A stretch of DNA of 64,000 nucleotides from a virus (lineage: Duplodnaviria > Heunggongvirae > Uroviricota > Caudoviricetes): IMG/VR virus record IMGVR_UViG_3300029656_000140; one strand, written 5' to 3'. This document shows, in pieces, positions 514 through 14,250 of this stretch (positions within the stretch are counted from its first letter, which is position 1; each line of letters starts with the position of its first letter). A program made the translations under genes and the position numbers. The notes below the pieces were generated by a model. The model had not been told where the DNA came from. It saw only the letters and a list, made by a program, of their open reading frames with translations, and did no database searches.

Positions 514-1008
514 TCACACTGCCCCACTGTCGGCTTTTTCTTCCGAGGTGGGATTGTTTTGCGCTGGGGAACTTTCTTCCCGACACAGGGCAAACGTGGG
601 GCTTCCCGTTTCGTCCAGCACTCTGCCGTTTTCGATTGGCAGCGCCTCCTGAATTTGAAAGCTGACCAGCTTCTGCTCCGGGAACGGATTCCCGATCATG
701 CGGTAAGACCTGCGCTTGCTCCAGTGGGCATTTTTGTAAACCATCCGGACGAAGGCCACGCACTTGATTTCACAGCTGCTGAACTCATTCAGCTTTCCCA
801 CTCGATGCGCACCGGCATCCCCTGCTTTGCATGCCTGCACTGCAATCTGATTCATTTGGGGATTGTATAAAAAACGATAGTGTGACGGCCAGCCGAGCGT
901 TTCAAGTGTGCTGCGGAAAATCGTGATCCGGCCTTCGTCAATACTGAATGTCATTCCCAGAACTCCGGCGTGCCATATTTTCTGTTCCTGTTCTTTCAAT
1001 CTGCTCAC
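514..1008 (-). CDS. small protein resembling the C-terminal domain of clostridial large serine recombinases (DUF4368-like), GTG start
   Basis: The motif ITIFRSTLETLG...IAVQ aligns by eye with the C-terminal domain of the recombinase at 1695-3566 (ISNGRLRFNTACL...VAIR) and with ORF 1055-1741. The start codon is GTG. Confidence 0.4.
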   Translation of the reverse strand: MSRLKEQEQKIWHAGVLGMTFSIDEGRITIFRSTLETLGWPSHYRFLYNPQMNQIAVQACKAGDAGAHRVGKLNEFSSCEIKCVAFVRMVYKNAHWSKRRSYRMIGNPFPEQKLVSFQIQEALPIENGRVLDETGSPTFALCREESSPAQNNPTSEEKADSGAV

Positions 1009-1054
1009 CTCCTAAAATTGGGCGCACTTCTCCCTTGGTGTCTTATTCCTGCTT

Positions 1055-1741
1055 TTAATCAGCTCCGGTACCGGGAGCCTTCCCCGTCAGGATGCCCATT
1101 GACACATATCCGTCCATCTGCTTGACCTCGGATTCTTTCAGATGCTCTTCCACTGGCACGCCAAAAGTACCTGCAATATCATCCGGGTAAAATCCCTTTC
1201 TGGTATCCGCAGGCTTTGTTTCCTGTGTTGTATTCTGGGCAGCACCTTTCTTACGCTTCTGAGGCTCATGGAAAATCTCAGGTACAAGCAAATCAAAAAC
1301 GTACAGAGTTTCCCCCTCGAAAGAAATCCTGTAGCCCAGCATCTTGTATCGGCACTCGCTGTCCCAGCCCATTTCTTTATAGACCAATTCCGAAAAAGGC
1401 TTACAGGACATCTTCCGGCTCTTACGCTTGTCCGGCTTTGCGATGCACCAGCGCAGAGCATCCTTGTCATTTTCATCACAGCCACGCACAACAATGCGCT
1501 TCAAATCGCTATTGAACATGACGTGGACATAAACCACATCTTCCAGCCCGGTGATGCAGGCTGTGTTGAATGTGATGCTGTCCTTGCGGATCACAATTGC
1601 AGGGTCACGAAGATGCGCGAACAGTTCTTTTCGGACGACCTGGTATCCGTCATACGAAAATGTACTCTCCAGTTCTTCAGCTTTTGCATCTCTATCAGTT
1701 TCCAATGCCTGCTGCGGCATCATCGCTCTGTTTTCTTCCAT
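1055..1741 (-). CDS. standalone DUF4368-like protein (recombinase C-terminal-domain homolog)
   Basis: 228 aa. The stretch SITFNTACITGLEDVVYVHVMFNSDLKRIVVRGCDENDKDALRW aligns with the C-terminus of the adjacent serine recombinase (LRFNTACLKKFEDVEYVELLLNSVDRCVAIRPCEKSNPNAIRW). It overlaps the recombinase 3' end. Confidence 0.5.
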   Translation of the reverse strand: MEENRAMMPQQALETDRDAKAEELESTFSYDGYQVVRKELFAHLRDPAIVIRKDSITFNTACITGLEDVVYVHVMFNSDLKRIVVRGCDENDKDALRWCIAKPDKRKSRKMSCKPFSELVYKEMGWDSECRYKMLGYRISFEGETLYVFDLLVPEIFHEPQKRKKGAAQNTTQETKPADTRKGFYPDDIAGTFGVPVEEHLKESEVKQMDGYVSMGILTGKAPGTGAD

Positions 1742-3566
1742 CTATGTCAATCCATCCTTCCATTATTTCTTCTGCCTCATGGAGCAAAGCATTCAGCCCC
1801 TCTGCGGTAAATATGTTCAATTCCTTAATTTCAGATGCCGGCCGGAGCACATCCCAATTCCCGGCATAATGCTCCTGCCGCAAAATGCCAACCTGTGCAA
1901 TGCTCGTGATTGGCTGTCCAAAAGTTCCTGCCCATTCAGGCGGGAAAATGTAAATCGTCTGTCTTATTGTTTTTCCCTCCGTATCTTCTTCCTTCGGCGG
2001 CAGAACGATTTTTTCAACTTTGATCATTTCCGGCTCATCCAGTTCAAAGAGCATCAGCTTATCGTCTCCCTGCTCCACAAGCTGTCCCCGGAAGCGGTAC
2101 TTCAAATTCTCATCCCACTCCATAATGTCAAAAAGGGCTTTTGCCAGACCGCGGCAGCCAAGTGTACTGGCACACCAGCGTCCTTGTTTCAGCCTGCCCC
2201 AGCGAATGGCATTCGGATTGCTCTTCTCACATGGACGAATGGCAACACAGCGGTCAACCGAATTCAGAAGCAGTTCTACATACTCCACATCCTCAAACTT
2301 TTTCAGGCAGGCAGTATTAAAGCGCAGCCTTCCATTTGAAATCGTCATCGCTGGATTCTGCAAGGTTGCAAAATACTGTGCCCGGACGACTTCATATCCT
2401 GTAAGATCCAGACGGTTCATTACCTCTGCCGTGTCGTGCCTCTCTTCCTGCATGACGCTTTCAGATGCTTCTCGATACTCTTCCGCAGAGAAACCTGTCC
2501 AGTCTTTATCAAAAGGCACATATCCACGGAGGATGCCATCGTCCACTACACTCAAAACCGGCAAAGGATGATTTTTCTTTTTATATGTCCGGGATGCACG
2601 CAGGTGATTGGCTGCGTTGAAAACATCTCTGGAGACAATTGCCTCGTGGTGATCTCGCTGGCGGTACTGCGTCCGGTCGTTATGGTTCTTCTTTGCCTTA
2701 TGGGTAAGGAAGTTTGGTGTGAAAGTCTTTCTCGCCAGTACATCTCCACAATGGCGTTCATTTGCAATGATGCCGGCAACAGTACCGGGATTCCACTCCG
2801 TGTTCCCCAGCTTCGTCTTCCGCTCGTAATCTGTCAGGAGTTCTGCAATATCTTTCAGTGAAAAACCGTTCAGGTACAGATAATAAATGACTTTTACCGT
2901 CTGTGCCTCTTCTGGATTCACCACAAGATTGCCATCTTCGTCCTGATCGTACCCCAACAAAGCAGGCGTGAGAAACAGTCCTCGGCTGAACCGGCGGTCA
3001 ATGGACCAGTTCATAATGATCGACTTGGAATGAGATTCTTCCTCTGCCACTGATGCCAGAATGGTCAAAATCATGCGGCCGTTGCTGTCCAGCGTATAGA
3101 TATTGTCTGCTTCAAATTTCACACCAACAGGTGGATCAAGATTTTTCAGTGTTTCAATGACAGAAAGGCAGTCCACAATGTTTCTGGCAAAACGGGCAAT
3201 GGACTTTGTAAGAATCAAATCAATCTTCCCGGCCTTGCAGTCTTCGATCAACTGCTGCATCCCCTTGCGATGCGCCAGTGAAGTGCCACTAATACCTTCA
3301 TCGTCATAGATGCCCACAAACTCCCATCCCGGCTGCGCCTTGATGTAATCGGTGTAATAATTTTTCTGAAGTTCGTAAGAAGAAGTCTGCTCATCATTAT
3401 CCGTGGAAACACGAACATAGGCAGCGACACGACGAATAGAGGTGCTCTCTCCAAGCCCCTCCACTGCTTTTGCCGGAATGACCTCCAGTTCGGAGGTATC
3501 CACGCCTTTATATCGATCTCTGATTCTTTGCTTGCGGTCTACCGCTTCTGTTCCACTGCTTATCAT
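1695..3566 (-). CDS. large serine recombinase (resolvase/invertase catalytic domain + recombinase domain + zinc ribbon + C-terminal DUF4368-like domain)
   Basis: Catalytic N-terminal domain RVAAYVRVSTDNDEQ...SIARFARN with the active-site serine. ATG at 3566 follows the RBS GAGAGGAAG. The longer ORF start at 3683 has no RBS. Confidence 0.9.
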   Translation of the reverse strand: MISSGTEAVDRKQRIRDRYKGVDTSELEVIPAKAVEGLGESTSIRRVAAYVRVSTDNDEQTSSYELQKNYYTDYIKAQPGWEFVGIYDDEGISGTSLAHRKGMQQLIEDCKAGKIDLILTKSIARFARNIVDCLSVIETLKNLDPPVGVKFEADNIYTLDSNGRMILTILASVAEEESHSKSIIMNWSIDRRFSRGLFLTPALLGYDQDEDGNLVVNPEEAQTVKVIYYLYLNGFSLKDIAELLTDYERKTKLGNTEWNPGTVAGIIANERHCGDVLARKTFTPNFLTHKAKKNHNDRTQYRQRDHHEAIVSRDVFNAANHLRASRTYKKKNHPLPVLSVVDDGILRGYVPFDKDWTGFSAEEYREASESVMQEERHDTAEVMNRLDLTGYEVVRAQYFATLQNPAMTISNGRLRFNTACLKKFEDVEYVELLLNSVDRCVAIRPCEKSNPNAIRWGRLKQGRWCASTLGCRGLAKALFDIMEWDENLKYRFRGQLVEQGDDKLMLFELDEPEMIKVEKIVLPPKEEDTEGKTIRQTIYIFPPEWAGTFGQPITSIAQVGILRQEHYAGNWDVLRPASEIKELNIFTAEGLNALLHEAEEIMEGWIDIDGRKQSDDAAAGIGN

Positions 3567-3576
3567 GTACTTCCTC

Positions 3577-4557
3577 TCATTCTTCCGGCTGTATGCTCCA
3601 GTACCACTGGCGCATCTTCCGATAACTTCGGATGCCGAGCTCCTTCTTTGTGTTTTCTGCTGTCCTGCGGCTGATGCCTTCATCGCTCATCCGCATATAA
3701 ATTTCTCTGGATCTCATATCTCCTTCAGAAAGCAGCTTTTTGATTAGATAGGCCGCTTTCTCAGACTTTGACTCAAAATTTGGTGTTTCCGGCTCCGCTA
3801 TTGGGTCCGGTGCAATCTCACACTCCAGCCAATGAAATCCTTCTTCTGCAGTTATCGAAAAACGGATTTCTCCATCGGATGGAGCCAGACTGTTTTTTAT
3901 CTGCCGGACAATGCGAACATCTGCGTTCTCTGGATCTCGTTCCACCTGCAGGACACTCCGGGCGGCCGCCACTACATCAATACTGCCAAGGCTCCGATAC
4001 AGACCTTTTGTTCCCTCTTTTTTGTTGAGGTGGCCGATCAGCACAATGGCGCAGTCATATACGGATGCCCACATGCCAAGACGCTGCATCAGCTTTCTGG
4101 CTCTGCCTGCAATCTGGAGGTCAGAATCGCTTCCAAGATACGCCTGTATCGGGTCGATGACTACCAGCCGAGGCCGGAATTCTATAATAGCCTGCCGGAT
4201 GCGTTCATCATCCAGTGTCAGGCCACTGTATGTTTCTTCATTTATAAAGGCCACATTCCTGCAATCTGCCCCACACTTTTCCAGCCGGGGCTTGATGGTA
4301 TCTGATACACCATCTTCTGAGCACTGGTAAATGACCCTCTGTGATAATCCAACGGCTTTGCCATCCGGCAGCTTTCCGCCTTTTGATAACTCTGCTATCA
4401 GATTCATCATCATTGTGGACTTACCGTCACCGGGGTCTCCTTGCAGTAATGTGATCTTCCCAACTGCAATGAACGGATACCACAACCAGCGAACGGCAGT
4501 CGCTTGTACATCACTATATAATGTAAGAATTCCTGTTTCTCCTTTGTTCGCCATCAT
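3577..4557 (-). CDS. RecA-like AAA ATPase (AAA_25/RepA-like) of integrative elements
   Basis: Walker A motif GDPGDGKST and Walker B LVVIDPIQ. It sits immediately upstream of the serine recombinase in the same operon. Confidence 0.75.
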   Translation of the reverse strand: MMANKGETGILTLYSDVQATAVRWLWYPFIAVGKITLLQGDPGDGKSTMMMNLIAELSKGGKLPDGKAVGLSQRVIYQCSEDGVSDTIKPRLEKCGADCRNVAFINEETYSGLTLDDERIRQAIIEFRPRLVVIDPIQAYLGSDSDLQIAGRARKLMQRLGMWASVYDCAIVLIGHLNKKEGTKGLYRSLGSIDVVAAARSVLQVERDPENADVRIVRQIKNSLAPSDGEIRFSITAEEGFHWLECEIAPDPIAEPETPNFESKSEKAAYLIKKLLSEGDMRSREIYMRMSDEGISRRTAENTKKELGIRSYRKMRQWYWSIQPEE

Positions 4558-4619
4558 CGTTCCTTTCTGTGTGCAGTCTTTCCCTCATTTACATTATAAG
4601 GGTTGCATGATGATTTGAC

Positions 4620-4670
4620 TGCCACCTGTTGGGTGGCACATCATCGTTTTTGCCACCTAATAGGTGGCAA
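4620..4670. promoter_or_regulatory. two palindromic operator sites, TGCCACC-N5-GGTGGCA, 32 bp centre to centre
   Basis: Copies are tgccacctgttgggtggca (4620-4638) and tgccacctaataggtggca (4652-4670). They lie in the divergent region between the XRE gene and the ATPase-recombinase operon. Confidence 0.6.
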
Positions 4671-4737
4671 AATAGCCTTAGACCACACTACGGATAGAGG
4701 TGTGGCCTTTTGCGGTCTTAAATTCCTCTGTATCCAG

Positions 4738-4767
4738 TTGCTATGTATTTTTTCCTGCGAGATAATC
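4738..4767 (+). promoter_or_regulatory. sigma-70-like promoter for the XRE gene (TTGCTA, 17 bp, GATAAT)
   Basis: ttgcta-tgtattttttcctgcga-gataat lies ~40 bp upstream of the RBS AAGGAGGA and the ATG at 4806. Confidence 0.45.
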
Positions 4768-4805
4768 GTATTGCCTTATGCGGGTAAACATAAGGAGGAC
4801 CACAC

Positions 4806-5147
4806 ATGGCATTAGATTATTCTGCACTAGGAAAACGCATCAGCAATTTCCGTAATGCATCTGGGTTAACACAGGAACAGTTCGGCGAAAAGCTGAATAT
4901 GTCCCGAAAACATATTAGTCAGGTTGAGGCTGCTATCAGCCGTCCCAGCCTTGAAACACTGGTTGATATCGCCAATCTGCTCGGTATTTCAACCGATGAT
5001 CTTCTTGTTGACAGTCTGACCCACTCAGCATCTACCGCTGATTCCGAGATTCACCGTCTGCTTTTAGACTGCAATGCAATTGAGCAGGAAATTCTCACCC
5101 GGATGGTAAAAGAGATGAAAGCGATTTTATACGGTTTGGGAATCTGA
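4806..5147 (+). CDS. XRE-family (Cro/CI-type) HTH transcriptional regulator
   Basis: The HTH reads LGKRISNFRNASGLTQEQFGEKLNMSRKHISQVE. The RBS is AAGGAGGA. Confidence 0.85.
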   Translation: MALDYSALGKRISNFRNASGLTQEQFGEKLNMSRKHISQVEAAISRPSLETLVDIANLLGISTDDLLVDSLTHSASTADSEIHRLLLDCNAIEQEILTRMVKEMKAILYGLGI

Positions 5148-5385
5148 TTTTGTAACTCGTTGACTACATAACATAAAAGCCCGCATAAGCCACAGCTGCA
5201 CTTCGGATCACACCGGGGTGCTGTCTGTGGTTCATGCGGGACGAGGCAAAAAAAGCCCACCAGCGTACCATGTAAGATTCCACACAGTGCGCCGGTGGGC
5301 TGGTGAACGAGTTTTCAATCTTCGTTCCGATCTCTCGGACAGGTTTTATGTCTCTGCCCCGACATAAAGTTTATTTTCACTTATG

Positions 5386-6048
5386 CTACTTAGTATTGTC
5401 TACACCGTTGTTATCCTCTGCTTCTAGTCGCGGTAAAGTTCCCCAATCATCCGGGTATTTGAGTTTATCATAATCTATCTTTTTGGCTCGATAGATAATT
5501 TGACTAAACACACTCTCCTCTGCATCTTTTATATATGTAGCAATAATTCTGTAGGAATCCTTTATATTGTCCCGGATATCTCCCTCAAGTAATGTATCCG
5601 GAACATAGTCTCCAGTTCCCGTAACATCACGGAAGCCAAGTGCCCATTTTACACCGCCGACAAGTTTTTCGGTGTATAACAACGGATGTGAATTATTATA
5701 ATTTCCCATCATACTTGCAGACAGGTTAGCATTTTTAAAGGCAAAAGGCAAAACTGCCAGCTTTTGATGTGTCGTTCCTTTCCCCGCAAAGTCAATATCG
5801 GTTTCTTTCAATCGACCATCAATACAGAAATTATAAAAATCAAGATGCGACCATGTACTATTTGTAAGTTCCAGTCCTGTAAGATGATGAAAGTTACTAG
5901 CATCAAATCCAACCTCAAGCGATGAAACCTTCTTATGTTTATCGGTAACTACAAAGAGTAATCGCTTTCCAACAAAATTATTTTTGTACAGCCTCGCTGC
6001 TGATATTGCTATCGAAACTGCCTCTTTCTTTGTGTACTTCTTTCCCAT
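5386..6048 (-). CDS. hypothetical cargo protein in a low-GC island; candidate defence/abortive-infection or toxin-like protein
   Basis: 220-aa ORF in a ~38% GC segment set in ~55% GC DNA. No motif I can assign, although FHHLTGLE is conserved-looking. It converges on the XRE gene. Confidence 0.55.
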   Translation of the reverse strand: MGKKYTKKEAVSIAISAARLYKNNFVGKRLLFVVTDKHKKVSSLEVGFDASNFHHLTGLELTNSTWSHLDFYNFCIDGRLKETDIDFAGKGTTHQKLAVLPFAFKNANLSASMMGNYNNSHPLLYTEKLVGGVKWALGFRDVTGTGDYVPDTLLEGDIRDNIKDSYRIIATYIKDAEESVFSQIIYRAKKIDYDKLKYPDDWGTLPRLEAEDNNGVDNTK

Positions 6049-6126
6049 TCTGTATATTCCAATTCATTTATGTAAAAATTTAAAGGGAGACTACAACACC
6101 GCAGTGCTGTGCGTCTCCCTTTATGA

Positions 6127-6235
6127 CTGATTTTATCGTTGTCCGCCAACACTCCAGCCCATACGTCTGGATTCGCTATCAGGTTTTATCGTTGCCTGCC
6201 AACCCTCCGGCCTATGCATCCGGATTCACTATCGG
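6127..6235. repeat. two-copy imperfect tandem direct repeat (~53 bp, ~80% identity)
   Basis: ttttatcgttgtccgccaacactccagcccatacgtctggattcgctatcag is followed by ttttatcgttgcctgccaaccctccggcctatgcatccggattcactatcgg. Confidence 0.6.
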
Positions 6236-6346
6236 ATTTAAGGTGTCAGCCACACCAGCAGGATGTCGCCTGCTTTCCTACTCATAGTATACTCGATAAA
6301 CAGCTTTTTATCAACTGGTTTTGAAAATTTTCTTTTGAATTTTCTA

Positions 6347-6748
6347 TTAACTTCTGTCCCACCGCAAACTCCTATACGCATCCAGCACGAACTCCAAAAA
6401 ATGGGGACTCATCTGCTCCACCATGCTCTTACCATCCACATTCCCCAGCATGGTCACACCAGCTTTTGACAGGTCATCGTCTCTCTTCTCCAGTTCCTTG
6501 ATGCTATCCGCCACGGCCGCATCGATGAAGGCAGCGAGCTTTGCTCCGTCAACATTGCTTTGCACTGGCATCGGTGCGCCATCTTCACCGACAAGCTGAA
6601 TCACCTTCGGATCAAGAACCTTCTCCAGTTTCTCCAATGCCTCCTGCTCCGGCATCCGCCGCAGATACCCTTTCATCGCACTCACGACCATCAGTTCCAT
6701 CTGGGTCGTTGCATAATCCTCAACTGACAGCCACGCTAATTTCTTCAT
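6347..6748 (-). CDS. small hypothetical protein, last gene of the recombinase pair operon
   Basis: ATG at 6748 (MKKLAWLSVEDY) follows the RBS AGGAGAGAG. It lies directly downstream of recombinase B. Confidence 0.55.
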   Translation of the reverse strand: MKKLAWLSVEDYATTQMELMVVSAMKGYLRRMPEQEALEKLEKVLDPKVIQLVGEDGAPMPVQSNVDGAKLAAFIDAAVADSIKELEKRDDDLSKAGVTMLGNVDGKSMVEQMSPHFLEFVLDAYRSLRWDRS

Positions 6749-6897
6749 ATCGCTCTCTCCTGCTATGTGTATTTCTGTACTCTCACCATATAACAGAATT
6801 CTGCACATAGCAATGGGTTCGACAAAACAATTCCCCATAAAACAAAAAAAATCCCCACCAGACAAGACCAAATGTCTCATCCAGTGGGGAATCCGCG

Positions 6898-9102
6898 TCA
6901 TGCTTCCTGCTCCTGTACTTCTCTCTCCAGTGCTTTTCGTTTCCGGATCATCAGCGTGTTCGCTGTCTTTTCCTTTCTCTTTTCCCGGTGGTACCGGATG
7001 CAGAGTCCATTGACCTGCCAGCCATCCATCAGCACCTCGACCGTCTTGTTTGGGTTACACCTGCGGAATCCGATAAATGCCATCAGCGTCCGGCTGTTGC
7101 CTGTGCTCGTCAGCTTCACACCAAAGTTCGTCATGTAGGTGATCACATCTCCGTCAACGATGCCTTCCTTGATAAATGCAAAGTAGATACCTTTTTCAAA
7201 TTCCAGAAAATCCGGAGCCTGTTCTACACGGTCGGCTCCCATCTTCCTCTTTCCTCTTCGGATGTCGCTCATGATTTTGCTTCGTGCCTTCCCGCCAAGG
7301 TCACGCAGGCAGCTTCCATCCGTGTCCAGACCGTTGACGTTCAGCTTCATGCCGGCCTTGTTGACTTCGGGCAGGGCTTCCAGACAGCGGATGAAGAACT
7401 CATAGTTGTTTTTCATTTCCGAAAGAAGCTGTTCTTCCTGGCTGAGCTGCTGCCGTTCCTCCTGCTGCTCATCCAACCGAATCCGCAGATCATCTACCAG
7501 TCTTTCGTAGGTTTCGACCTCTGGGCTGGTTTTCTGTCGGCCACGCTCCACTGCTTCCTTCAGCTTGCCCTGCATCTGTGCCAGCTTTCCCTCCAGCTGC
7601 TGAATCTGTTCCTCCAGTTCTGCTTTCCTGGAAGAATCCCGTTCTGCAATGTGCTCCTGCACCTTCTGGTAGGCCATCCGGAATTCCGAATCGATCCATG
7701 CGTTTTCTCCATTTTCCTCACGGTCACGCTTGATGGCATACAGCATTTCCATGAAACTCTGCTTGACTGCCGTTTCGTACACAAAATGGGAAGGGCACTT
7801 TGCGTCTCCCTCGCCCATGTAGGTCGGATGCCAGGCAACATCTGGGTCTGCCTTTCCCATGAAAGGGCCATCGTTGGTCGGAGACGCATCTTTCTGACTG
7901 GAACACCGCCAGACCGGGTAGGTGTAATAATATCGCTCATAATAATCATCCGGCGAACTGCCCTGCGCCATTAATTCATCTCGGCAGGCATCCAGACTTC
8001 TGTCATCCTCAAAGTGCGTGGCTCTTGCCTGCAGGGTTCTGCGGTAAAGGGGTTCTCCGCATTTTCCGCATACCAGATTGTCAAAAACATCCTTGCCCAC
8101 CCGCTTGGCAGGCTTTTTGTCCTTCTGCCCTTTACGGCTGGCGCTCCTTCTTTCCAGAACTTCCTGTGCCCTCGTCCATGTCGTTCTGCTGATGATCGGG
8201 ACGTGATGGTCTGTTACATAGAACTTCGGGGCTTCTCCGTTGTTCGGGATTGATTTATGGCTGAGAAAATCGACCGTGACTGTTTTCTGCATTTCGCAGT
8301 CGCCCACATACTTCTCATTTCTCAGGATGAAGGTCACACTCTCTCCCTGCCATTTTGTACCTTTGGGTGAAAGGATGCCTTTCTCATTCAGTTCCTTGCT
8401 GATTTTGTATGCAGACTTTCCCAGAAGGAACTCCTCAAAAATGAACCGCACCACCCTGGCCTGTTCTTCTACGATGACCCAGTCCTTATTGTTTGCACCA
8501 TCCGTGTAGCCGTAGACCGACCTGGGATTTCCAAAAGCGATGCCTTCCTGAAACATCTTTTGGATGCTCCAGCCGATATTCTTGGAAATCGAATTGCTTT
8601 CTTCCTGTGCCAAAGCCGAAAGGATGGTCAGGAGCAATTCGCCAGATGCATCCAGCGTATCGATGTTCTCCTTTTCGAAGTACACACCGATTGGCGGGTC
8701 ACACTGCCGAAGCTGTCTCACGCAGTTCAGCGTATCGACCGTATTTCGTGCAAATCGGGAAATGGACTTTGTAATGATGTAATCGATCTTTCCGTCCAGC
8801 GCATCCTGCATCATCTGATTAAACTCGGTGCGGTGGTTACGGTTGGTGCCGGAGATTGCTTCATCTGCATACATTCCGGCAAAAGTCCAGCCTTCTTTTT
8901 CATTGATCAGCTTCGTGTAATAGCTTTTCTGCCCCTCATACGAAGTCTGCTGGGTAAGCTCATCGGTCGAAACACGGCCGTAAGCGGCAACCCGAATGTC
9001 CTTTGCCTTTTTCAGCTGACCGCCGGCCGACACTCTCCGCTTCGTTGCCGGAATCACCTGCACATTGTTTGCAACCGTCCCTTGTGTCATTTGTCTGTTC
9101 AT
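6898..9102 (-). CDS. large serine recombinase B
   Basis: Catalytic motif RVAAYGRVSTDELTQ...KSISRFARN, zinc ribbon CGKCGEPLY, and a coiled coil. ATG at 9102 follows the RBS AAGGAGGA. The TTG at 9105 listed in the ORF track is less likely. Its start overlaps the upstream recombinase stop in TGATG. Confidence 0.9.
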   Translation of the reverse strand: MNRQMTQGTVANNVQVIPATKRRVSAGGQLKKAKDIRVAAYGRVSTDELTQQTSYEGQKSYYTKLINEKEGWTFAGMYADEAISGTNRNHRTEFNQMMQDALDGKIDYIITKSISRFARNTVDTLNCVRQLRQCDPPIGVYFEKENIDTLDASGELLLTILSALAQEESNSISKNIGWSIQKMFQEGIAFGNPRSVYGYTDGANNKDWVIVEEQARVVRFIFEEFLLGKSAYKISKELNEKGILSPKGTKWQGESVTFILRNEKYVGDCEMQKTVTVDFLSHKSIPNNGEAPKFYVTDHHVPIISRTTWTRAQEVLERRSASRKGQKDKKPAKRVGKDVFDNLVCGKCGEPLYRRTLQARATHFEDDRSLDACRDELMAQGSSPDDYYERYYYTYPVWRCSSQKDASPTNDGPFMGKADPDVAWHPTYMGEGDAKCPSHFVYETAVKQSFMEMLYAIKRDREENGENAWIDSEFRMAYQKVQEHIAERDSSRKAELEEQIQQLEGKLAQMQGKLKEAVERGRQKTSPEVETYERLVDDLRIRLDEQQEERQQLSQEEQLLSEMKNNYEFFIRCLEALPEVNKAGMKLNVNGLDTDGSCLRDLGGKARSKIMSDIRRGKRKMGADRVEQAPDFLEFEKGIYFAFIKEGIVDGDVITYMTNFGVKLTSTGNSRTLMAFIGFRRCNPNKTVEVLMDGWQVNGLCIRYHREKRKEKTANTLMIRKRKALEREVQEQEA

Positions 9103-11204
9103 CAATACTTCCTCCTTATCATGCCGGGCTGCTGATAGCCCTCAAATACGCTGTCACACTCCACATCCGTGCAGGTGTCATCAAACCAGTGGATTCTAAA
9201 ATGTTTCGGTGAAAAAATGGTAACGGAAAGCACAAAGGCTTTCACATACGTTCCAACTGCTTCATCCAGAAACATCTGCGTCCCTCCCGCCAGAGAATCC
9301 AGCCATTGCAGCGTTTTCTCCCGGATTTCATAGGTCTGCTCCAGCTTCTTCCAGTAATCTTCCATGTACCGGACCTGTTCGGCCTGCTGCTGGGCTTCGT
9401 GTTCCAGCTTCTCCAGCTGTTCCTCTTCGTTGAGAAGTCTGTCTTCTAATTCTGTGACCGCTTCTTTTTCTATCGGTTCTCCCAGCACCTCACTTCTCAC
9501 TTTTAAGGCTTCTTTTTCTGCCTGAATATCCCGGATGTGCTGGTGGGCATCCCGAATGCTATAGTTCACTGCAGACAGCTGGCGTTTCAGAAAATCCCCT
9601 TCCTGCTCCATCTGGTCGAAATCATGGATCTCTCTCAGCTTCTCACTCAGATTCCTTAATGCCTGATTTCTCACATTATCAATAGGAGCTTTGGAGATCA
9701 TCTGCATAACCTCATGAACTTCTGCATCCATCTTCTCAACCAGCTTGAATTTTTCGGCAAATGCCTTGCGAAGCAGCGCCTGGATCTGCTCTTCATAAAC
9801 CGGCTCCATCCGGCAGCGCTTCTGTCCCTGTTGGGCGAGCTTCGTTGCACACCGCCAGATGGTTGTCCTTGTTGTGGAATGGCCTTGAAAATACCGTCCG
9901 CATTCTCCACACAGCAGGAGTTTGGAATAGTTCCTTTCGTTTCTTCCTTTTTCAATACCCCTGTACTTTGCCGTGTATACCTTCCAGACTTCCTGTGCTT
10001 CCTGCCACAATTCTTCCGAAATGATAGCCGGATGATGATTTCGTATCAGGTATTTCGGCTTTTCCCCCTTATTGACCTTCTGTTTACGCCCATTCCTGTG
10101 ATCGGTGTAGGTCTTCTGACAAAGTACAGAACCGCAGTAACGAACGTTTGCGATCATGTACCGAACATCCGTTGCCGTCCACCCCCGCTTATCTTCTTCC
10201 TTTAGTGTGCCAGCTGGCAGCACAGTTGGCTTCCGCTTTTGCCGCTGTCTGCATCCGCTGTTCGGCGGCTGGATATGCATGGCATCCAGCTTCTGGGCGA
10301 TTTGTGTGAAGCCTAATTCTTCTTTTGTAAAAAGTCGGAACACCATCCGAACAATCTCTGCTTCTTCCGGGATGATGAACACTGCCCGGTATCGGTATCC
10401 GTTCTCGTTCACTGTATACTCCCCTTTGCGGAATTCGTATCCGTAGATATCCTTGTTGCAGACATTTCCGGCCGGAAACCTTTTCTGATTGCTCCATGCA
10501 ATGTTTGCTGAAATCGAACGGCTCTCTTCCTGGGCAATGGCGGCCAGCGTAGTAAGAATGAACTCGCTGTAAGCATCCGCTGTATCCATCGCTTCCCGCT
10601 CAAACAGAATCGTGACATTGTTTTCCTTTAAGGTCCGTAATGCCACAAGAAAGTCCTGCGTGTTTCGGGCAAAACGGCTGATGGACTTACAGAGCACTCG
10701 GTCAATCTTCCCCTGCTTGCAGTGCCGGAGCAAACGGTTGAATCCTGTCCGTCCTTCCCTGCTTGTTGCGGAAATGCCATGATCGGAATAAATGCCGGCA
10801 GATGTCCATCCCGCATTTCCTGCCAGGAGTGACATAAAGTAGCGTTCCTGCATTTCATACGAATCTTCCTGTGCCGGATTGGTGGAGGAAACACGGATAT
10901 ATGCGGCGACCCGAACAGCCTTCTCTTGGCTTGCTGCTGGCACCGTCGGCATTGCCGGCCGGCATTCCTGCATCACATCGGATGCGAGCTGGGAGAAGTC
11001 TTCCATACTCTCCGGCTCATTCACCGGCATTTCTTTTACTGGTGCATAGCTGGTTACGGGCGGCTTCTTTTTCTCAGCCCTGACTTTTTGCATGGCGGCA
11101 AGGATCTGCGCCACCGATTCACTCTGTTCTGCCTTTTTCTTACCTTTTGCTTCCGGCAGCTTCATCTTTGACATAAGATCATTCAGAAAAGCATTTGAAT
11201 CCAT
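9102..11204 (-). CDS. large serine recombinase C
   Basis: Catalytic motif VRVAAYIRVSSTNPAQ...KSISRFARN. ATG at 11204 (MDSNAFL) follows the RBS AAGGAGAGG. It is translationally coupled to recombinase B. Confidence 0.9.
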   Translation of the reverse strand: MDSNAFLNDLMSKMKLPEAKGKKKAEQSESVAQILAAMQKVRAEKKKPPVTSYAPVKEMPVNEPESMEDFSQLASDVMQECRPAMPTVPAASQEKAVRVAAYIRVSSTNPAQEDSYEMQERYFMSLLAGNAGWTSAGIYSDHGISATSREGRTGFNRLLRHCKQGKIDRVLCKSISRFARNTQDFLVALRTLKENNVTILFEREAMDTADAYSEFILTTLAAIAQEESRSISANIAWSNQKRFPAGNVCNKDIYGYEFRKGEYTVNENGYRYRAVFIIPEEAEIVRMVFRLFTKEELGFTQIAQKLDAMHIQPPNSGCRQRQKRKPTVLPAGTLKEEDKRGWTATDVRYMIANVRYCGSVLCQKTYTDHRNGRKQKVNKGEKPKYLIRNHHPAIISEELWQEAQEVWKVYTAKYRGIEKGRNERNYSKLLLCGECGRYFQGHSTTRTTIWRCATKLAQQGQKRCRMEPVYEEQIQALLRKAFAEKFKLVEKMDAEVHEVMQMISKAPIDNVRNQALRNLSEKLREIHDFDQMEQEGDFLKRQLSAVNYSIRDAHQHIRDIQAEKEALKVRSEVLGEPIEKEAVTELEDRLLNEEEQLEKLEHEAQQQAEQVRYMEDYWKKLEQTYEIREKTLQWLDSLAGGTQMFLDEAVGTYVKAFVLSVTIFSPKHFRIHWFDDTCTDVECDSVFEGYQQPGMIRRKY

Positions 11205-11382
11205 ATCGTCCTCTCCTTTCGTCAGATTTTCCTTCCGAAAGGAAAACGTGTGGTAATGCCACCGCCTTTTCCTATCTTCGGGTAGTGACATATTTGCTCT
11301 ATCCGGCACTTATAGCAAGTGATATCCGAACTATAAATCGTAGAATATCTGCCCCTATAATCGGGCAGAACTGACGATTGCG

Positions 11383-11424: not shown

Positions 11425-12897
11425 TCAGATACGTGCTGCGAAGTCAAGTGCGATCCAGCCTGCACCGGATTTCAGCTTGCCCCAGCCTTTCACAGAACCA
11501 GCACCAGCAGATTCTGTCACGATGGTGAACACGCCCCTTCCGGTGTAATAACCGGTCTTGCCGTAGTTTGTGCCTGGTCCTTTACGGATGTTGAGGTCAT
11601 TGATGGACACTCGAACCGCATACGGCACAGATGCAGTCTGGTTCACAGGATAGACCGCCTTGCCGGCCGGATCAAAAACCGTATACCCCGGATTCGCATC
11701 CGCACACTGCTTCGCATAGGACAGATCATGGAACGCCCCTTTCTGGGAAGCTGCATTCTGCCAGCTCTTACGCACACGATACCAGCCAGAGATGTTACCT
11801 CCCTGGTTCTGGGCTGAGGCATTATACTGTGTCATGTTCCAGCGTTCGATGATATTGCAGAGATTCTGCACATAGGTGTGGCTGGTGGCATAGCCGCCAT
11901 CCTTGATGATCTGCACAGCCTTCTTGTAATCCGTGCATCCTGCCAGACCTTCATAACGTTTCCTGCTGCCATTCATCGCACCGAGCAGATATGCCGCATG
12001 GTCGGCAATGGAGTCCTCCACACAGGCGTACTTTCGGAAATCAGCGGTGATCGTGACATAGCTGCCATCGGCATTCTGCTCCTGCGTTTTCTTGGTATAG
12101 ACCGACTTGCCATCCCAACTGCTGCCGCTCCAGCTGTTCCCGGAAAGCGAGGTCTTCATGCCAAAGCAGTTATTAGCATTCTGTGCCAATTCACTCTTAC
12201 CGTAGCCGGACTCCAGAATAAACTGCGCCATCGACACGCAGGCAAGGATGCCGAACTGCTTCTGGTTTTCGGTAAACAATGGACCGATCTCTGCCACTGC
12301 CTCGGCTTCAGACAGGTTCTTAAGGGAAGATGCCTGCAGGCCGGATGAAGATGAACCGCCAAGTGCCGCCGTCACCCTTGCTGCCAGATCACCCAGACGG
12401 GCGTACAGCCAGTTTCCGGGACAGCTTTTGTTGGCAAACCAGCGATGAACAGTCAGGATCATCTCGTCTGCTGCCGGAGCGTAGTTGAGGGTTTTATTCT
12501 TGTCGCCCAGCCACAGCAGTTTCTTCTTGCCGTTACGTTTGCAGATATCGATGCAGAGCTTAACGAGCGAGTTATATACGGCGCTGTTCATCGCATACGG
12601 CTCATTCATGTCGCTGGCACATTCGATGGTGACTGCTCTCTGGTCATTGGAATTGCTGGACGAGCACCAGCTGCGGTTCTTCTCCTCCACACACAGAGAA
12701 ACCCGGCCGTCCGTGCCAATGCCATAGTTGCAGCTGGCCTGACGGGTCGGGCTGGTAAAACATCCGCAAATGCTCTCCGCAGAAAGCTGACCTACCACGC
12801 AATGCGGCGTGATGCGGTCAATGCTGTGTGTTCTCTGCCCGGAATGGTTCGGGGAGAGTTTGGTATAAACAACGAGTGGACTATTGGTGTATCCCAT
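11425..12897 (-). CDS. endolysin: N-acetylmuramoyl-L-alanine amidase (Amidase_2) + glucosaminidase + ~48-aa wall-binding module + SH3
   Basis: Amidase_2 motifs HSIDRITPHCVVG...AVTIECASD, glucosaminidase FILESGYGKSELAQNANNCFGMK, and a C-terminal SH3. ATG at 12897 follows the RBS AGGAGGA. The ORF-track N-terminal extension has no RBS. Confidence 0.85.
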   Translation of the reverse strand: MGYTNSPLVVYTKLSPNHSGQRTHSIDRITPHCVVGQLSAESICGCFTSPTRQASCNYGIGTDGRVSLCVEEKNRSWCSSSNSNDQRAVTIECASDMNEPYAMNSAVYNSLVKLCIDICKRNGKKKLLWLGDKNKTLNYAPAADEMILTVHRWFANKSCPGNWLYARLGDLAARVTAALGGSSSSGLQASSLKNLSEAEAVAEIGPLFTENQKQFGILACVSMAQFILESGYGKSELAQNANNCFGMKTSLSGNSWSGSSWDGKSVYTKKTQEQNADGSYVTITADFRKYACVEDSIADHAAYLLGAMNGSRKRYEGLAGCTDYKKAVQIIKDGGYATSHTYVQNLCNIIERWNMTQYNASAQNQGGNISGWYRVRKSWQNAASQKGAFHDLSYAKQCADANPGYTVFDPAGKAVYPVNQTASVPYAVRVSINDLNIRKGPGTNYGKTGYYTGRGVFTIVTESAGAGSVKGWGKLKSGAGWIALDFAARI

Positions 12898-12962
12898 ATC
12901 GATTCCTCCTAAAAAATTGAGACCCGGATCACTCCGAGTCTCATGTGTTTGTGTTATTGTGT

Positions 12963-13670
12963 TTAAGGGATCAGCAGCTTCATGCCGACCCGGATGGCAT
13001 TGGAGGTCAGGCCGTTCAGTGCACGGATATCGGCACAACGGCTGCCATCCCCCAGTTCCTTCTCTGCAATCTTCCAGAGGTTGTCGCCCGGAACAACGGT
13101 GTAGATCTTGCTGGCGGTAAAGGCATAGGTATCCGCACTGTTGAGAACATAGGCCAGACCGCTCGCCGCTTCCGGGCATTTAATCTTCAGCCAGCCGGCG
13201 CAGAACTCCACGATCTCGATCAGCGTATTCTTCTTATAGATAGCCACAACCTCTGCACTGGTATCCGGCATTTCCCGGATATTCATAAGGGTCTTGAGTT
13301 TGCCATAGGCGATCGCTGCCGGGAGTTCCTCTGCAGTCGGATACTCTTCCTTTCCGGGTCCCTCTTTCTGCTCATCCGTCACAGGGGTGTCCTTCTCTTC
13401 CAAAGATTCCTCTTCCGGTACTTTCCCTTCCGGCTCGTCCATAACAGGCTTTTCCTCCGCTTCTTCTGCACCTGTGACCGGCACAGCCTCCTCCGGGTAG
13501 ATCACATTGCCGTCATTATCAAATACACGGCTGCCGGGATTCTCATCGCACTTGGCTTTTGCATTCGCCAGCAGACGGTATGCGCCAAACTGGGATGCTT
13601 CATCCTCCCAGTCCTCACGCACACGGTAGTAGCCGGTCGTCAGCTTTGCGGGATATTCTTTCATACTCAT
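12963..13670 (-). CDS. cell-wall-binding protein without catalytic domain (shared ~48-aa module + SH3 + LysM)
   Basis: The N-terminal YYRVREDWEDEASQFGAYRLLANAKAKCDENPGSRVFDNDGNVIYP is homologous to GWYRVRKSWQNAASQKGAFHDLSYAKQCADANPGYTVFDPAGKAVYP in the endolysin. The C-terminal LysM reads YTVVPGDNLWKIA...GMKLLIP. Confidence 0.7.
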   Translation of the reverse strand: MSMKEYPAKLTTGYYRVREDWEDEASQFGAYRLLANAKAKCDENPGSRVFDNDGNVIYPEEAVPVTGAEEAEEKPVMDEPEGKVPEEESLEEKDTPVTDEQKEGPGKEEYPTAEELPAAIAYGKLKTLMNIREMPDTSAEVVAIYKKNTLIEIVEFCAGWLKIKCPEAASGLAYVLNSADTYAFTASKIYTVVPGDNLWKIAEKELGDGSRCADIRALNGLTSNAIRVGMKLLIP

Positions 13671-13724: not shown

Positions 13725-14147
13725 TTACTGCTTGTCGATTTTGTCCTGATCGCGCTCGTCTTTCAGCTGTGCCAGCATCTCCTTGAGCTTCTCCGGCACC
13801 GGAAGACCGATCACTGCTGCATTTTCGAGACAGCTCAGGCCCTCGTTTGCCAGATAGAAGAACACTACAGCGGTGCGGATGGCGGCTCCATTCTGGAGGA
13901 TCTGTGTGTCAATGATATTGGCAATACCAACCAGCACAAAGATACATACCTTCTTGGCGATACCCTTAAAGCCAACTTCAGAAGAAAGCTCATGCTTGAT
14001 TGCTGCCGCCAGCACCCCGGTGAAGTAGTCACAGACCACGAACACTACAAGTGCATACAGGAAGCCGTCAAACCCGCCGAAGAACCAGCCCAGGAAACCA
14101 CCCAGGCCTGCGAACATCCATTCAATCTTGTCGATCACATTCTGCAT
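13725..14147 (-). CDS. phage holin
   Basis: 140 aa with several transmembrane stretches (FAGLGGFLGWFFGG, LYALVVFVVC, IFVLVGIANII) and a charged C-terminus. It heads the lysis cassette. ATG at 14147. Confidence 0.7.
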   Translation of the reverse strand: MQNVIDKIEWMFAGLGGFLGWFFGGFDGFLYALVVFVVCDYFTGVLAAAIKHELSSEVGFKGIAKKVCIFVLVGIANIIDTQILQNGAAIRTAVVFFYLANEGLSCLENAAVIGLPVPEKLKEMLAQLKDERDQDKIDKQ

Positions 14148-14250
14148 AATTCCGTCCTTTCCGCCCGTATCCGGGCAATAAAAATAGACAGCCGAAGCTG
14201 CCCTTTGATATGGATTATATATAAAAACACGGACAAGCCGTGGGATTTGA

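What the first reader, a model, noticed from the sequence alone, without database searches (positions are those of the whole stretch)
5386..6048. Low-GC (~38%) cargo gene of unknown family between the two recombinase units
A 220-aa ORF with sharply lower GC than its surroundings, and so recently acquired, sits convergent to the XRE regulator and next to a 53-bp tandem repeat. I cannot place it in a known family. A conserved-looking FHHLTGLE segment and the context are reminiscent of toxin or abortive-infection cargo in integrative elements.
Basis: partly seen in the sequence, partly recalled or inferred. Interest (0 to 1): 0.6.

Follow-up and report, generated by a model that had tools for sequence, protein, structure and literature searches.

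The report
RNA-guarded nuclease toxin cassette in prophage

Summary
In detail: a 220-aa ORF at 5386..6048 (-), GC 38.5%, convergent with an XRE gene and next to a 53-bp tandem repeat. The claim that it fits no known family is wrong.

Promoter (6314..6286), structured RNA (6274..6125), intrinsic terminator (6121..6074) and ORF form one ~0.9-1.1 kb mobile cassette. All 111 protein-selected homolog loci carry this RNA directly upstream on the same strand, down to ~32% protein identity and across five Firmicutes families. The RNA has two 53-nt units plus a partial unit. These form three H-type pseudoknots with A-rich linkers, supported by extensive compensatory changes. It is absent from Rfam.

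The protein resembles neither ToxN/CptN/TenpN nor any solved structure. At least 34 phage loci carry the RNA without the toxin, often co-oriented inside tRNA arrays, which recalls phage pseudo-ToxI.

Best reading (~0.7): an undescribed type III toxin-antitoxin family, probably an abortive-infection module of prophages. Toxicity and inhibition by the RNA are inferred, not shown.

The parts
6286..6314 (-). Sigma-70-type promoter: -35 TTGATA (6314..6309), 17-nt spacer, -10 TATACT (6291..6286). It drives the RNA and, by terminator read-through, the ORF.
   Evidence: Consensus scan gives 10 of 12 matches. A TTGACA/TATAAT-like pair sits at the same distance upstream of the RNA in unrelated loci, including L007, L011, L015 and phi1605. 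A match to consensus alone is not proof of function.
6257..6274 (-). P1: the 5' hairpin of the RNA (AGCAGG / CCUGCU).
   Evidence: All 6 pairs are 100% paired, and 5 of the 6 show compensatory double changes across 14 distinct leaders.
6233..6256 (-). Partial unit 0: mini-hairpin GGUG-(U)GGCUGA-CACC, A-rich linker UUAAA, and segment UCCG. Loop GGCUGA pairs with UCAGUC after unit 2 (helix K0). UCCG pairs with the loop of unit 2 (helix K2).
   Evidence: K0 and K2 are 100% paired with compensatory changes. The table from the model-derived alignment, in which the pseudoknots were not modelled, shows about 12 K0 combinations and 6 K2 combinations. Phi1605 uses GCUUGA:UCAAGC and CUUG:CAAG.
6180..6232 (-). 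Repeat unit 1 (53 nt): variable-stem hairpin H1 (6224..6206), pseudoknot core GUUG-G-CAGG-CAAC (6203..6191), and linker GAUAAAA plus CCUG (6190..6180). Loop CAGG pairs with CCUG (helix K1), forming a local H-type pseudoknot.
   Evidence: TRF repeat. K1 is 100% paired with 3 compensatory pairs, and 14 distinct complementary 4-mer combinations occur across loci.
6125..6179 (-). Repeat unit 2: hairpin H2 (6171..6153), core GUUG-G-CGGA-CAAC (6150..6138), and linker GAUAAAA plus UCAGUC (6137..6125). Units 1 and 2 are identical at 42 of 53 positions.
   Evidence: The S1_2 stem covaries (GAUG/CAUC, GUCG/CGAC). The two units are identical in L019/L020.
6074..6121 (-). Intrinsic terminator between the RNA and the ORF: a 16-bp interrupted stem (6121..6083) followed by UAAAUUUUU (6082..6074).
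   Evidence: 12 of 16 pairs show compensatory changes and 98% of cells are paired. It is present in all toxin-linked loci. There is no conserved anti-terminator: the longest alternative helix is 5-7 nt, no better than shuffled sequence.
5386..6048 (-). PBECR4-family protein of 220 aa, a predicted metal-independent endoribonuclease and the candidate toxin. Probable catalytic residues are H55 and K96, with T152/T171.
   Evidence: Pfam PF18813, E=7.9e-23, residues 17-189 against model positions 5-187 of 188. AF2 model: pLDDT 89.7, pTM 0.85. Iyer 2017 describes a His in the N-terminal helix plus a C-terminal Thr/Ser active site.
5247..6350 (-). Extent of the mobile cassette, meaning the DNA shared with otherwise unrelated contexts.
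   Evidence: blastn shows that L001 shares only 5247..6350, L004 5411..6527, L005 5411..6317 and L006 5469..6291.

Best explanation
The locus is a two-component, type III-like toxin-antitoxin cassette carried in the accessory region of a prophage. One promoter (6314..6286) transcribes a ~200-nt non-coding RNA. This RNA is built from a 5' hairpin, a partial unit and two 53-nt units that interlock through three H-type pseudoknots with A-rich (GAUAAAA) linkers. Most transcripts stop at the intrinsic terminator (6121..6074), so the RNA is made in excess. Read-through transcripts express the PBECR4 protein, a metal-independent RNase with a His55/Lys96 active site. By analogy with ToxIN and CptIN, the protein probably binds the RNA, perhaps after cutting it at the A-rich unit junctions, and is held inactive in a ribonucleoprotein complex. 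When RNA supply falls or the RNA is degraded, for example after transcription shut-off during phage infection or after loss of the element, free nuclease cleaves cellular or phage RNA and stops growth, which amounts to abortive infection or addiction. Phages counter this with toxin-less copies of the RNA, often transcribed within their tRNA arrays.

Shown here: family membership of the protein; existence, structure and covariation of the RNA; the obligate RNA-terminator-gene arrangement; mobility of the cassette; and the orphan copies in phages.

Inferred: toxicity of the protein, direct inhibition by the RNA, the processing site, the trigger and the anti-phage role.
For: 1. The protein is a full-length PBECR4 member. 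This family was predicted to be BECR-fold RNases with a His plus Thr/Ser active site, and H55 and K96 are invariant down to 24% identity.

2. The architecture meets every criterion Blower et al. 2012 set for type III loci: a toxin gene preceded by a terminator, which is preceded by tandem repeats, with a promoter upstream.

3. The linkage is obligate. All 111 protein-selected loci have the RNA immediately upstream on the same strand: 20 genomic or metagenomic, 6 viral, phi1605, 80 metagenomic and 4 distant isolates including Salinicoccus, C. sporogenes and Peptoniphilus. The ORF starts 6-120 nt after the RNA, in unrelated genomic contexts and with no conserved protein neighbour.

4. The RNA is a real structured RNA. 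97.8% of cells are paired against 30-53% for slid controls, and 34 of 58 pairs carry compensatory changes, reached by 0 of 500 shuffles. The pseudoknot helices, which were left out of the covariance model, show 14 (K1), 6 (K2; 7 counting the phi1605 pair read from its sequence) and about 12 (K0) distinct complementary combinations. At 37% protein identity, phi1605 replaces the sequence of every helix while keeping the architecture.

5. The unit design (4-bp stem, one-base G as L1, second stem, A-rich loop with a single U) mirrors the crystal structure of CptI.

6. Evidence for action in trans comes from 34 RNA loci without any PBECR4 gene. Two have decayed toxin N-termini (L069, L076). Nine lie within 200 nt of phage tRNA genes and are co-oriented with them. 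All intact ones keep the compensated pseudoknots. This parallels pseudo-ToxI in phage PhiTE.

7. The terminator has no conserved anti-terminator. Unit number varies between 1 and 2, and the units are sometimes identical to each other.

8. The module sits in prophage accessory positions, next to lysis genes, repressors or integrases.
Confidence: 0.7

Rival explanations
1. The RNA is a cis-acting regulatory leader, such as a riboswitch, protein-binding attenuator or autoregulatory operator. It controls transcription read-through or translation of the PBECR4 gene in response to a ligand or to the protein itself, and has no antitoxin activity in trans.
For: A promoter, structured RNA, intrinsic terminator and ORF in that order is also the classic riboswitch layout. 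The RNA is always in cis and immediately upstream. Tandem aptamers are known in other systems. The whole RNA can fold as one interlocked domain.
Against: No conserved anti-terminator pairing exists. Intact copies with compensated structure exist with no downstream gene or terminator, embedded in phage tRNA arrays. The RNA is retained where the toxin has decayed (L069, L076). The units are sometimes perfect repeats and vary in number, as in antitoxin arrays. It matches no Rfam family.
Confidence: 0.13
2. The pair is a non-toxic ribonucleoprotein. PBECR4 would be a dedicated processing or binding enzyme, in the manner of Cas6, that matures the repeat RNA into small RNAs with their own function, for example decoys against RNases injected by phages or regulators of prophage genes. 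The RNA would be the effector and the protein its helper.
For: The RNA is more widely distributed than the protein and occurs alone in phages. Iyer 2017 notes that PBECR domains are delivered by phages and conjugative elements as effectors, so an RNA that neutralises incoming PBECR nucleases would be useful to a resident prophage. The hairpin loops are semi-conserved, consistent with a recognition role.
Against: In every protein-selected locus the terminator limits expression of the protein relative to the RNA. That control is needed for a dangerous protein but not for a helper. The gene shows the low GC, mobility and occasional decay typical of toxin cargo. No target for such small RNAs is evident.
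Confidence: 0.1
3. It is an offensive phage effector, as Iyer et al. proposed for solo PBECR proteins. The prophage would use the RNase against host or competitor RNAs such as CRISPR RNAs, and the upstream RNA would serve only to keep it silent during lysogeny.
For: This is the original family annotation. The gene sits in prophages next to lysis or lysogeny modules.
Against: The cassette has its own constitutive-looking promoter and is not embedded in virion or early-gene operons. Many copies lie outside recognisable prophages, next to RecO, PFOR or DNA polymerase III genes. Other phages carry the RNA alone, which fits counter-defence better than offence. This rival also overlaps mechanistically with the main explanation, because the RNA would still inhibit the nuclease.
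Confidence: 0.07

Closest known systems
CptIN (type III toxin-antitoxin; Coprococcus / Eubacterium rectale; PDB 4RMO)
   Same: Both have a promoter, two tandem RNA repeats, a terminator and a toxin ORF. Both occur in gut Clostridia. In both, the RNA unit is an H-type pseudoknot with a one-base G as L1 and a long A-rich loop containing a single U, which packs against stem 1 in CptI. Here the unit reads GUUG-G-CAGG-CAAC-GAUAAAA-CCUG.
   Different: CptN has a Kid/MazF-like fold. The protein here is PBECR4, with no sequence or profile match to any PDB chain and no structural match. The units here are 53 nt rather than 45 nt, each carries an extra hairpin, and two of the three pseudoknot stems are exchanged between units instead of forming within one unit.
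ToxIN / AbiQ and TenpIN (type III toxin-antitoxin and abortive infection)
   Same: The genetic architecture and presumed logic are the same: RNA in excess through a terminator, an endoRNase toxin, and A-rich unit junctions. Phages carry antitoxin look-alikes, as with pseudo-ToxI of PhiTE.
   Different: ToxI has 5.5 repeats of 36 nt. ToxN and TenpN share a Kid-like fold with a kinked helix and a different set of conserved residues. No Pfam, NCBIfam or PADLOC model for these families hits this protein.
PBECR family of predicted phage RNases (Iyer, Burroughs, Anand, de Souza and Aravind 2017) and BECR toxins (colicin D/E5, RelE)
   Same: The protein is a bona fide PBECR4 member with the predicted His plus Thr/Ser signature. 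It is solo, about 200 aa, and found in prophages and mobile elements.
   Different: No RNA partner, antitoxin or immunity factor has been described for PBECR4. BECR toxins are normally neutralised by proteins, either immunity proteins or type II antitoxins. Here the only conserved partner is an RNA.
AbiF and AvcID (other RNA-antitoxin systems now classed as type III)
   Same: In both, a protein toxin is controlled by an adjacent non-coding RNA, and both function in phage defence.
   Different: Their toxins are a HEPN-type protein and a deoxycytidylate deaminase respectively, and their RNAs are not tandem pseudoknot repeats of this kind.

Membership tests
Pfam PF18813 PBECR4 | Significant full-length match to the family HMM above the gathering threshold | tested here: met
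   E=7.9e-23 and 82.2 bits against a cutoff of 27, with residues 17-189 matching model positions 5-187 of 188. All homologs are pre-annotated PF18813, and NCBI names relatives 'PBECR4 domain-containing protein'.
Pfam PF18813 PBECR4 | [quoted passage not shown] | tested here: met
   H55 lies in predicted helix 50-57 and is invariant. T152 is invariant and T171 nearly so among close homologs, and is replaced by Ser in some distant ones. K96 is also invariant.
[quoted passage not shown] | Structural similarity to solved BECR RNases | tested here: inconclusive
Type III toxin-antitoxin system (architecture criteria of Blower et al. 2012) | Toxin ORF immediately preceded by a palindromic intrinsic terminator | tested here: met
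   The terminator at 6121..6074 ends 26 nt before the ATG. It is conserved with 12 compensatory pairs.
Type III toxin-antitoxin system (architecture criteria of Blower et al. 2012) | Tandem nucleotide repeats upstream of the terminator | tested here: met
   53 bp x 2.1 copies. The units are perfect copies in L019, and there is a single unit in L113 and L075.
Type III toxin-antitoxin system (architecture criteria of Blower et al. 2012) | Promoter upstream of the repeats driving the whole locus | tested here: met
   TTGATA-17-TATACT at 6314..6286. Equivalent promoters occur in unrelated loci. These are consensus matches only.
Type III toxin-antitoxin system (functional definition) | The RNA repeats form pseudoknots | tested here: met
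   Three pseudoknot helices are supported by covariation that is independent of the model used to align the sequences.
Type III toxin-antitoxin system (functional definition) | The protein is toxic, and the RNA neutralises it by direct binding | not testable with these tools
   This needs expression and rescue assays and co-purification. Indirect support comes from orphan RNAs in phages and RNA retention beside decayed toxin genes.
Type III toxin-antitoxin system (functional definition) | The toxin processes the repeat RNA into units | not testable with these tools
   The only evidence is the invariant A-rich junctions (A100-A103 and equivalents), which are consistent with a cleavage site.
ToxN / CptN / TenpN toxin superfamily (Kid-like fold) | Sequence or structural homology to ToxN, CptN, AbiQ or TenpN | tested here: not met
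Known Rfam RNA families (including ToxI) | Covariance-model match | tested here: not met
   There is no match at E<=1 in 4500..7000. Nothing but tRNA, tmRNA, ROOL and skipping-rope matches in ten RNA-bearing phage loci.
Known anti-phage defence systems (PADLOC-DB 2.0) | Match to a defence-protein model | tested here: not met
   The PBECR4 protein has no PADLOC hit at E<=0.1.

The most novel reading that the evidence does not exclude
PBECR4 proteins, about 1,600 clusters at 50% identity across Firmicutes prophages, are the toxins of a previously unrecognised type III toxin-antitoxin and abortive-infection family. In this family an RNase unrelated to ToxN is held in check by an interlocked two-unit pseudoknot RNA. 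Phages have repeatedly captured that RNA, inserting it into their tRNA arrays as an anti-defence decoy. The recurrent placement beside tRNA-Thr genes may even point to the toxin's cellular target.
Probability: 0.6. Interest if true: 0.85.

Novelty: new variant of a known kind. Interest (0 to 1): 0.8.

Why it matters
[quoted passage not shown] If the reading here is right, four things follow:

- **Convergence:** the same RNA-antitoxin solution evolved, or was transferred, onto an unrelated nuclease scaffold.
- **Function for PBECR4:** a whole Pfam family of unknown biology, common in human-gut Clostridia and also found in Clostridium sporogenes, Erysipelothrix, Peptoniphilus and Salinicoccus, gains a function and a partner.
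- **A new RNA class:** this is a structured RNA absent from Rfam, with an unusual topology in which pseudoknot stems are exchanged between repeat units.
- **A natural arms race:** phages appear to place antitoxin mimics inside tRNA arrays, which would make RNA-based counter-defence much more common than the single PhiTE example suggests.

Sequence-specific RNases with a matching RNA inhibitor are also useful tools. All of this is directly testable with simple expression, rescue and phage-challenge experiments.

Tried and rejected
- **Other libraries:** Rfam had no family for the RNA. PADLOC and NCBIfam had no model for the protein. PHROGs matched only an unknown-function family.
- **Cultured phage and plasmid records:** blastn with the RNA found nothing in 50,697 phage records. 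tblastn found only phi1605 in phages and nothing in plasmids.
- **Riboswitch-type anti-terminator:** none found.
- **Alternative protein partner downstream of orphan RNAs:** no common family; there is one Fic/Doc gene in L055.
- **Conserved neighbouring immunity gene:** none; neighbours differ in every context.
- **Low GC as evidence of recent acquisition:** rejected as a specific inference, because it is a trait of the whole family.
- **Literature:** searches for PBECR, BECR or new type III families found no prior description of the pairing. The library does not cover all journals.

Full report
**1. The observation.** The ORF is real: 5386..6048 on the minus strand, ATG start, 220 aa. Its GC is 0.385 and its GC3 is 0.33. 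The window mean is 0.519 (sd 0.033 for 663-nt windows), which puts the ORF at the 0.24th percentile, and neighbouring genes have GC3 of 0.50-0.61. It is convergent with an XRE-type HTH gene at 4806..5147 (+). It lies between large serine recombinase genes at 1695..3683 and at 6898..9105 / 9102..11309. These are followed by an endolysin (11425..13179), a LysM/SH3 protein and a holin (13725..14267), so this is the end of a prophage. TRF confirms a 53-bp x 2.1 tandem repeat at 6131..6240.

**2. The protein belongs to a known family.** Iyer et al. [quoted passage not shown] They described no partner. In an alignment of 31 homologs, H55-L-T-G58, K96, P150, T152, R167 and K174 are invariant. In relatives only 24-40% identical, H55, G58, F71, G91, K96, G138 and P150 remain invariant.

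**3. The tandem repeat is part of a transcription unit with the gene.** Reading the minus strand upstream of the ATG, the elements run in this order:

- a promoter, TTGATA-17-TATACT (6314..6286)
- a 5' hairpin, P1 (6274..6257)
- a mini-hairpin, GGUG-UGGCUGA-CACC (6256..6242)
- an A-rich linker
- two 53-nt units (6232..6180 and 6179..6125), each made of a hairpin, a GUUG-G-NNNN-CAAC mini-hairpin and a GAUAAAA linker
- a strong terminator hairpin with a U-run (6121..6074)
- the ORF, starting 26 nt later

Blower et al. [quoted passage not shown]

**4. The RNA and the gene are inseparable.** Every locus retrieved by protein similarity has the RNA immediately upstream on the same strand:

| Sample | Loci |
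|---|---|
| Genome loci (Hominifimenecus, Blautia, Hungatella and others) | 6 |
| Metagenomic loci, 41-64% identical proteins, unrelated contexts (next to DndB, RecO, PFOR, DNA polymerase III, ArdA, HicAB) | 14 |
| Viral contigs | 6 |
| Erysipelothrix phage phi1605, the only cultured-phage hit (37% identity) | 1 |
| Metagenomic loci | 80 |
| Distant members: Salinicoccus halitifaciens, Clostridium sporogenes (SPbeta-like prophage), Peptoniphilus, and a prophage lysogeny module | 4 |

That is 111 of 111, although many are redundant. The ORF begins 6-120 nt after the RNA. No protein-coding neighbour is conserved. Comparison with the window shows that the DNA shared with unrelated contexts is only ~5411..6291-6350, which is exactly the promoter, RNA, terminator and gene. 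The ORF is lower in GC than its flanks in 20 of 22 loci, so low GC is a family trait.

**5. The RNA is a structured, pseudoknotted molecule.** On 14 distinct leaders, my model of 58 pairs in 11 helices is 97.8% paired, against 30-53% when partners are slid by 1-3 columns. 34 pairs show compensatory double changes, against a shuffle mean of 11.5, and 0 of 500 shuffles reach that number. RNAalifold independently predicted the hairpins and the long-range helix.

The loop of each mini-hairpin pairs with a segment that follows an A-rich linker:

- **K1:** the loop of unit 1 pairs with the segment right after unit 1.
- **K2:** the loop of unit 2 pairs with the segment after the partial unit 0.
- **K0:** the loop of unit 0 pairs with the segment after unit 2.

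I built a covariance model that contained only the nested helices and aligned 63 instances with it. The pseudoknot columns, which were not modelled, show 14 distinct complementary combinations for K1, 6 for K2 and about 12 for K0. Phi1605, read directly from its sequence, adds a seventh K2 pair. Phi1605 changes the sequence of every helix while keeping the architecture, for example K0 GCUUGA:UCAAGC, K1 UUGG:CCAA, K2 CAAG:CUUG and S1_1 GUCU/AGAC. The nested part alone folds with z=-3.9. The RNA matches no Rfam family.

The unit design is a 4-bp stem, a single G as loop 1, a 4-bp second stem and an A-rich loop with one U. That is the design seen in the CptI crystal structure.

**6. Toxin-less copies in phages.** Scanning IMG/VR with a 20-nt RNA pattern and then with profiles revealed 34 loci that have the RNA but no PBECR4 coding sequence detectable by HMM or tblastn. 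Fifteen of them score at least 50 bits with the covariance model. They fall into three groups:

- complete RNAs with a terminator and nothing behind it (L033/L056)
- RNAs followed by decayed toxin N-termini (L069 'MTYTKQQAFSW*' and L076)
- two-unit or single-unit versions embedded in phage tRNA arrays

Of 28 orphan loci scanned for tRNAs, 9 have the RNA within 200 nt of a tRNA gene, always co-oriented. L032 lies flush between tRNA-Ile and tRNA-Thr, and L060 and L084 are followed within 3 nt by a tRNA-Thr. The intact orphans keep fully compensated K0, K1 and K2 helices, so they are maintained as functional RNAs. No other protein family consistently follows them. The precedent is phage PhiTE, which escapes ToxIN through 'pseudo-ToxI' repeats.

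**7. Discriminating between explanations.** A cis-regulatory leader is the main rival. Four results count against it. No conserved anti-terminator exists. Orphan copies lack both gene and terminator. The RNA persists beside decayed toxin genes. Finally, unit number and identity vary as they do in antitoxin arrays: the units are identical to each other in L019, and L113 and L075 have a single unit.

A non-toxic RNP, or a purely offensive phage RNase, cannot be excluded without experiments. The terminator-limited expression of the protein, the mobility of the cassette, its prophage-accessory locations and the phage-borne mimics fit a toxin-antitoxin and abortive-infection module best.

**8. Comparison with what is known.** According to a 2025 survey, the recognised type III families are toxIN, cptIN and tenpIN, all with Kid-like toxins, plus AvcID and AbiF. 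The present system meets the architectural and RNA-structural criteria of type III, but its toxin fails every test of membership in the ToxN/CptN/TenpN superfamily. It is a member of PBECR4, for which no RNA partner has been reported in the searchable literature. I therefore classify it as a new variant of a known kind: a type III-like system built on a different nuclease, with a new RNA family whose pseudoknot stems are exchanged between repeat units.

**9. Verdict.** The real finding is larger than the ORF. It is a promoter-RNA-terminator-PBECR4 cassette (about 5386..6314) that is conserved across Firmicutes prophages and is very likely an undescribed RNA-antitoxin/RNase-toxin system, with apparent phage counter-measures. 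Toxicity, RNA-mediated inhibition, the processing site, the target and the anti-phage role are all inferred and need the experiments listed under next steps.

Noticed in passing
L032 9524-9718, L060 5119-5292, L084 9900-10109, L078 738-865 (viral contigs): Orphan copies of the RNA in phage tRNA arrays are repeatedly followed directly by a tRNA-Thr gene: anticodon UGU in L032, L060 and L078, and CGU in L084. This could be chance, or a hint about the toxin's target or about co-selected counter-defence.
   Followed up: partly
L084 13328-13908 and 10486-10553: The phage contig that carries an orphan RNA among 19 tRNA genes also encodes a full-length ROOL RNA (323 bits) and a skipping-rope RNA, so it is a dense island of large non-coding RNAs.
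   Followed up: no
L037 6268-6532, L062 5011-5230, L063 234-503, L079 594-842: In this variant class of toxin-less RNAs, the partial unit 0, the last unit and the terminator are kept. The first unit is replaced by a larger conserved domain of about 110 nt (…GACGCUC…GCGAAUAGCGUAAACGC…GGGCUUGCACAU…GAGCCGUGAGGCAGCAAG…).
   Followed up: no
L055 about 700-1100 (minus strand), 231 nt downstream of an orphan RNA: A Fic/Doc-family gene (Pfam PF02661, E=7e-15) follows a toxin-less copy of the RNA. This may be coincidence or a different toxin recruited next to the RNA.
   Followed up: partly
window 1695-3683, 6898-9105, 9102-11309: Three large serine recombinase genes (Resolvase + Recombinase domains, one with Zn_ribbon_recom) lie within 10 kb at the prophage end, two of them overlapping head-to-tail. 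The whole ~12-kb block recurs at 89% identity in Blautia sp. BIOML-A1 and in a Clostridia MAG (L002, L003).
   Followed up: partly
window 514-1008, 1055-1741 and the C-terminal third of 1695-3683 (all minus strand): Two ORFs without a Pfam match (164 and 228 aa) appear similar by eye to the C-terminal region of the 662-aa recombinase (…VVR..F..L..PA..I….I.FNTAC…). This suggests a repeated accessory domain of unknown function.
   Followed up: no
window 6347-6901 (minus strand) and 6852-6890: The 184-aa ORF upstream of the cassette has no family. Its annotated start overlaps a strong terminator-like hairpin (17 pairs plus a T-run at 6890..6852) that probably ends the recombinase operon, so the true start is probably further downstream. 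A 20-bp x 2.2 repeat (6821-6865) overlaps the same spot.
   Followed up: no
L093 (Erysipelothrix phage phi1605, MF172979.1 84720-85346): The deposited annotation starts the PBECR4 gene (SER90K_81) at an internal codon. By alignment with homologs and the RBS position, the start is 69 nt upstream, at locus position 2483. The record leaves the upstream RNA unannotated.
   Followed up: partly
window 3577-4557 (minus strand): An AAA_25 (RecA/KaiC-like ATPase) gene overlaps the 5' end of the first recombinase gene and, with the XRE gene, lies on the far side of the cassette. It may belong to a small integrative element nested in the prophage end.
   Followed up: no
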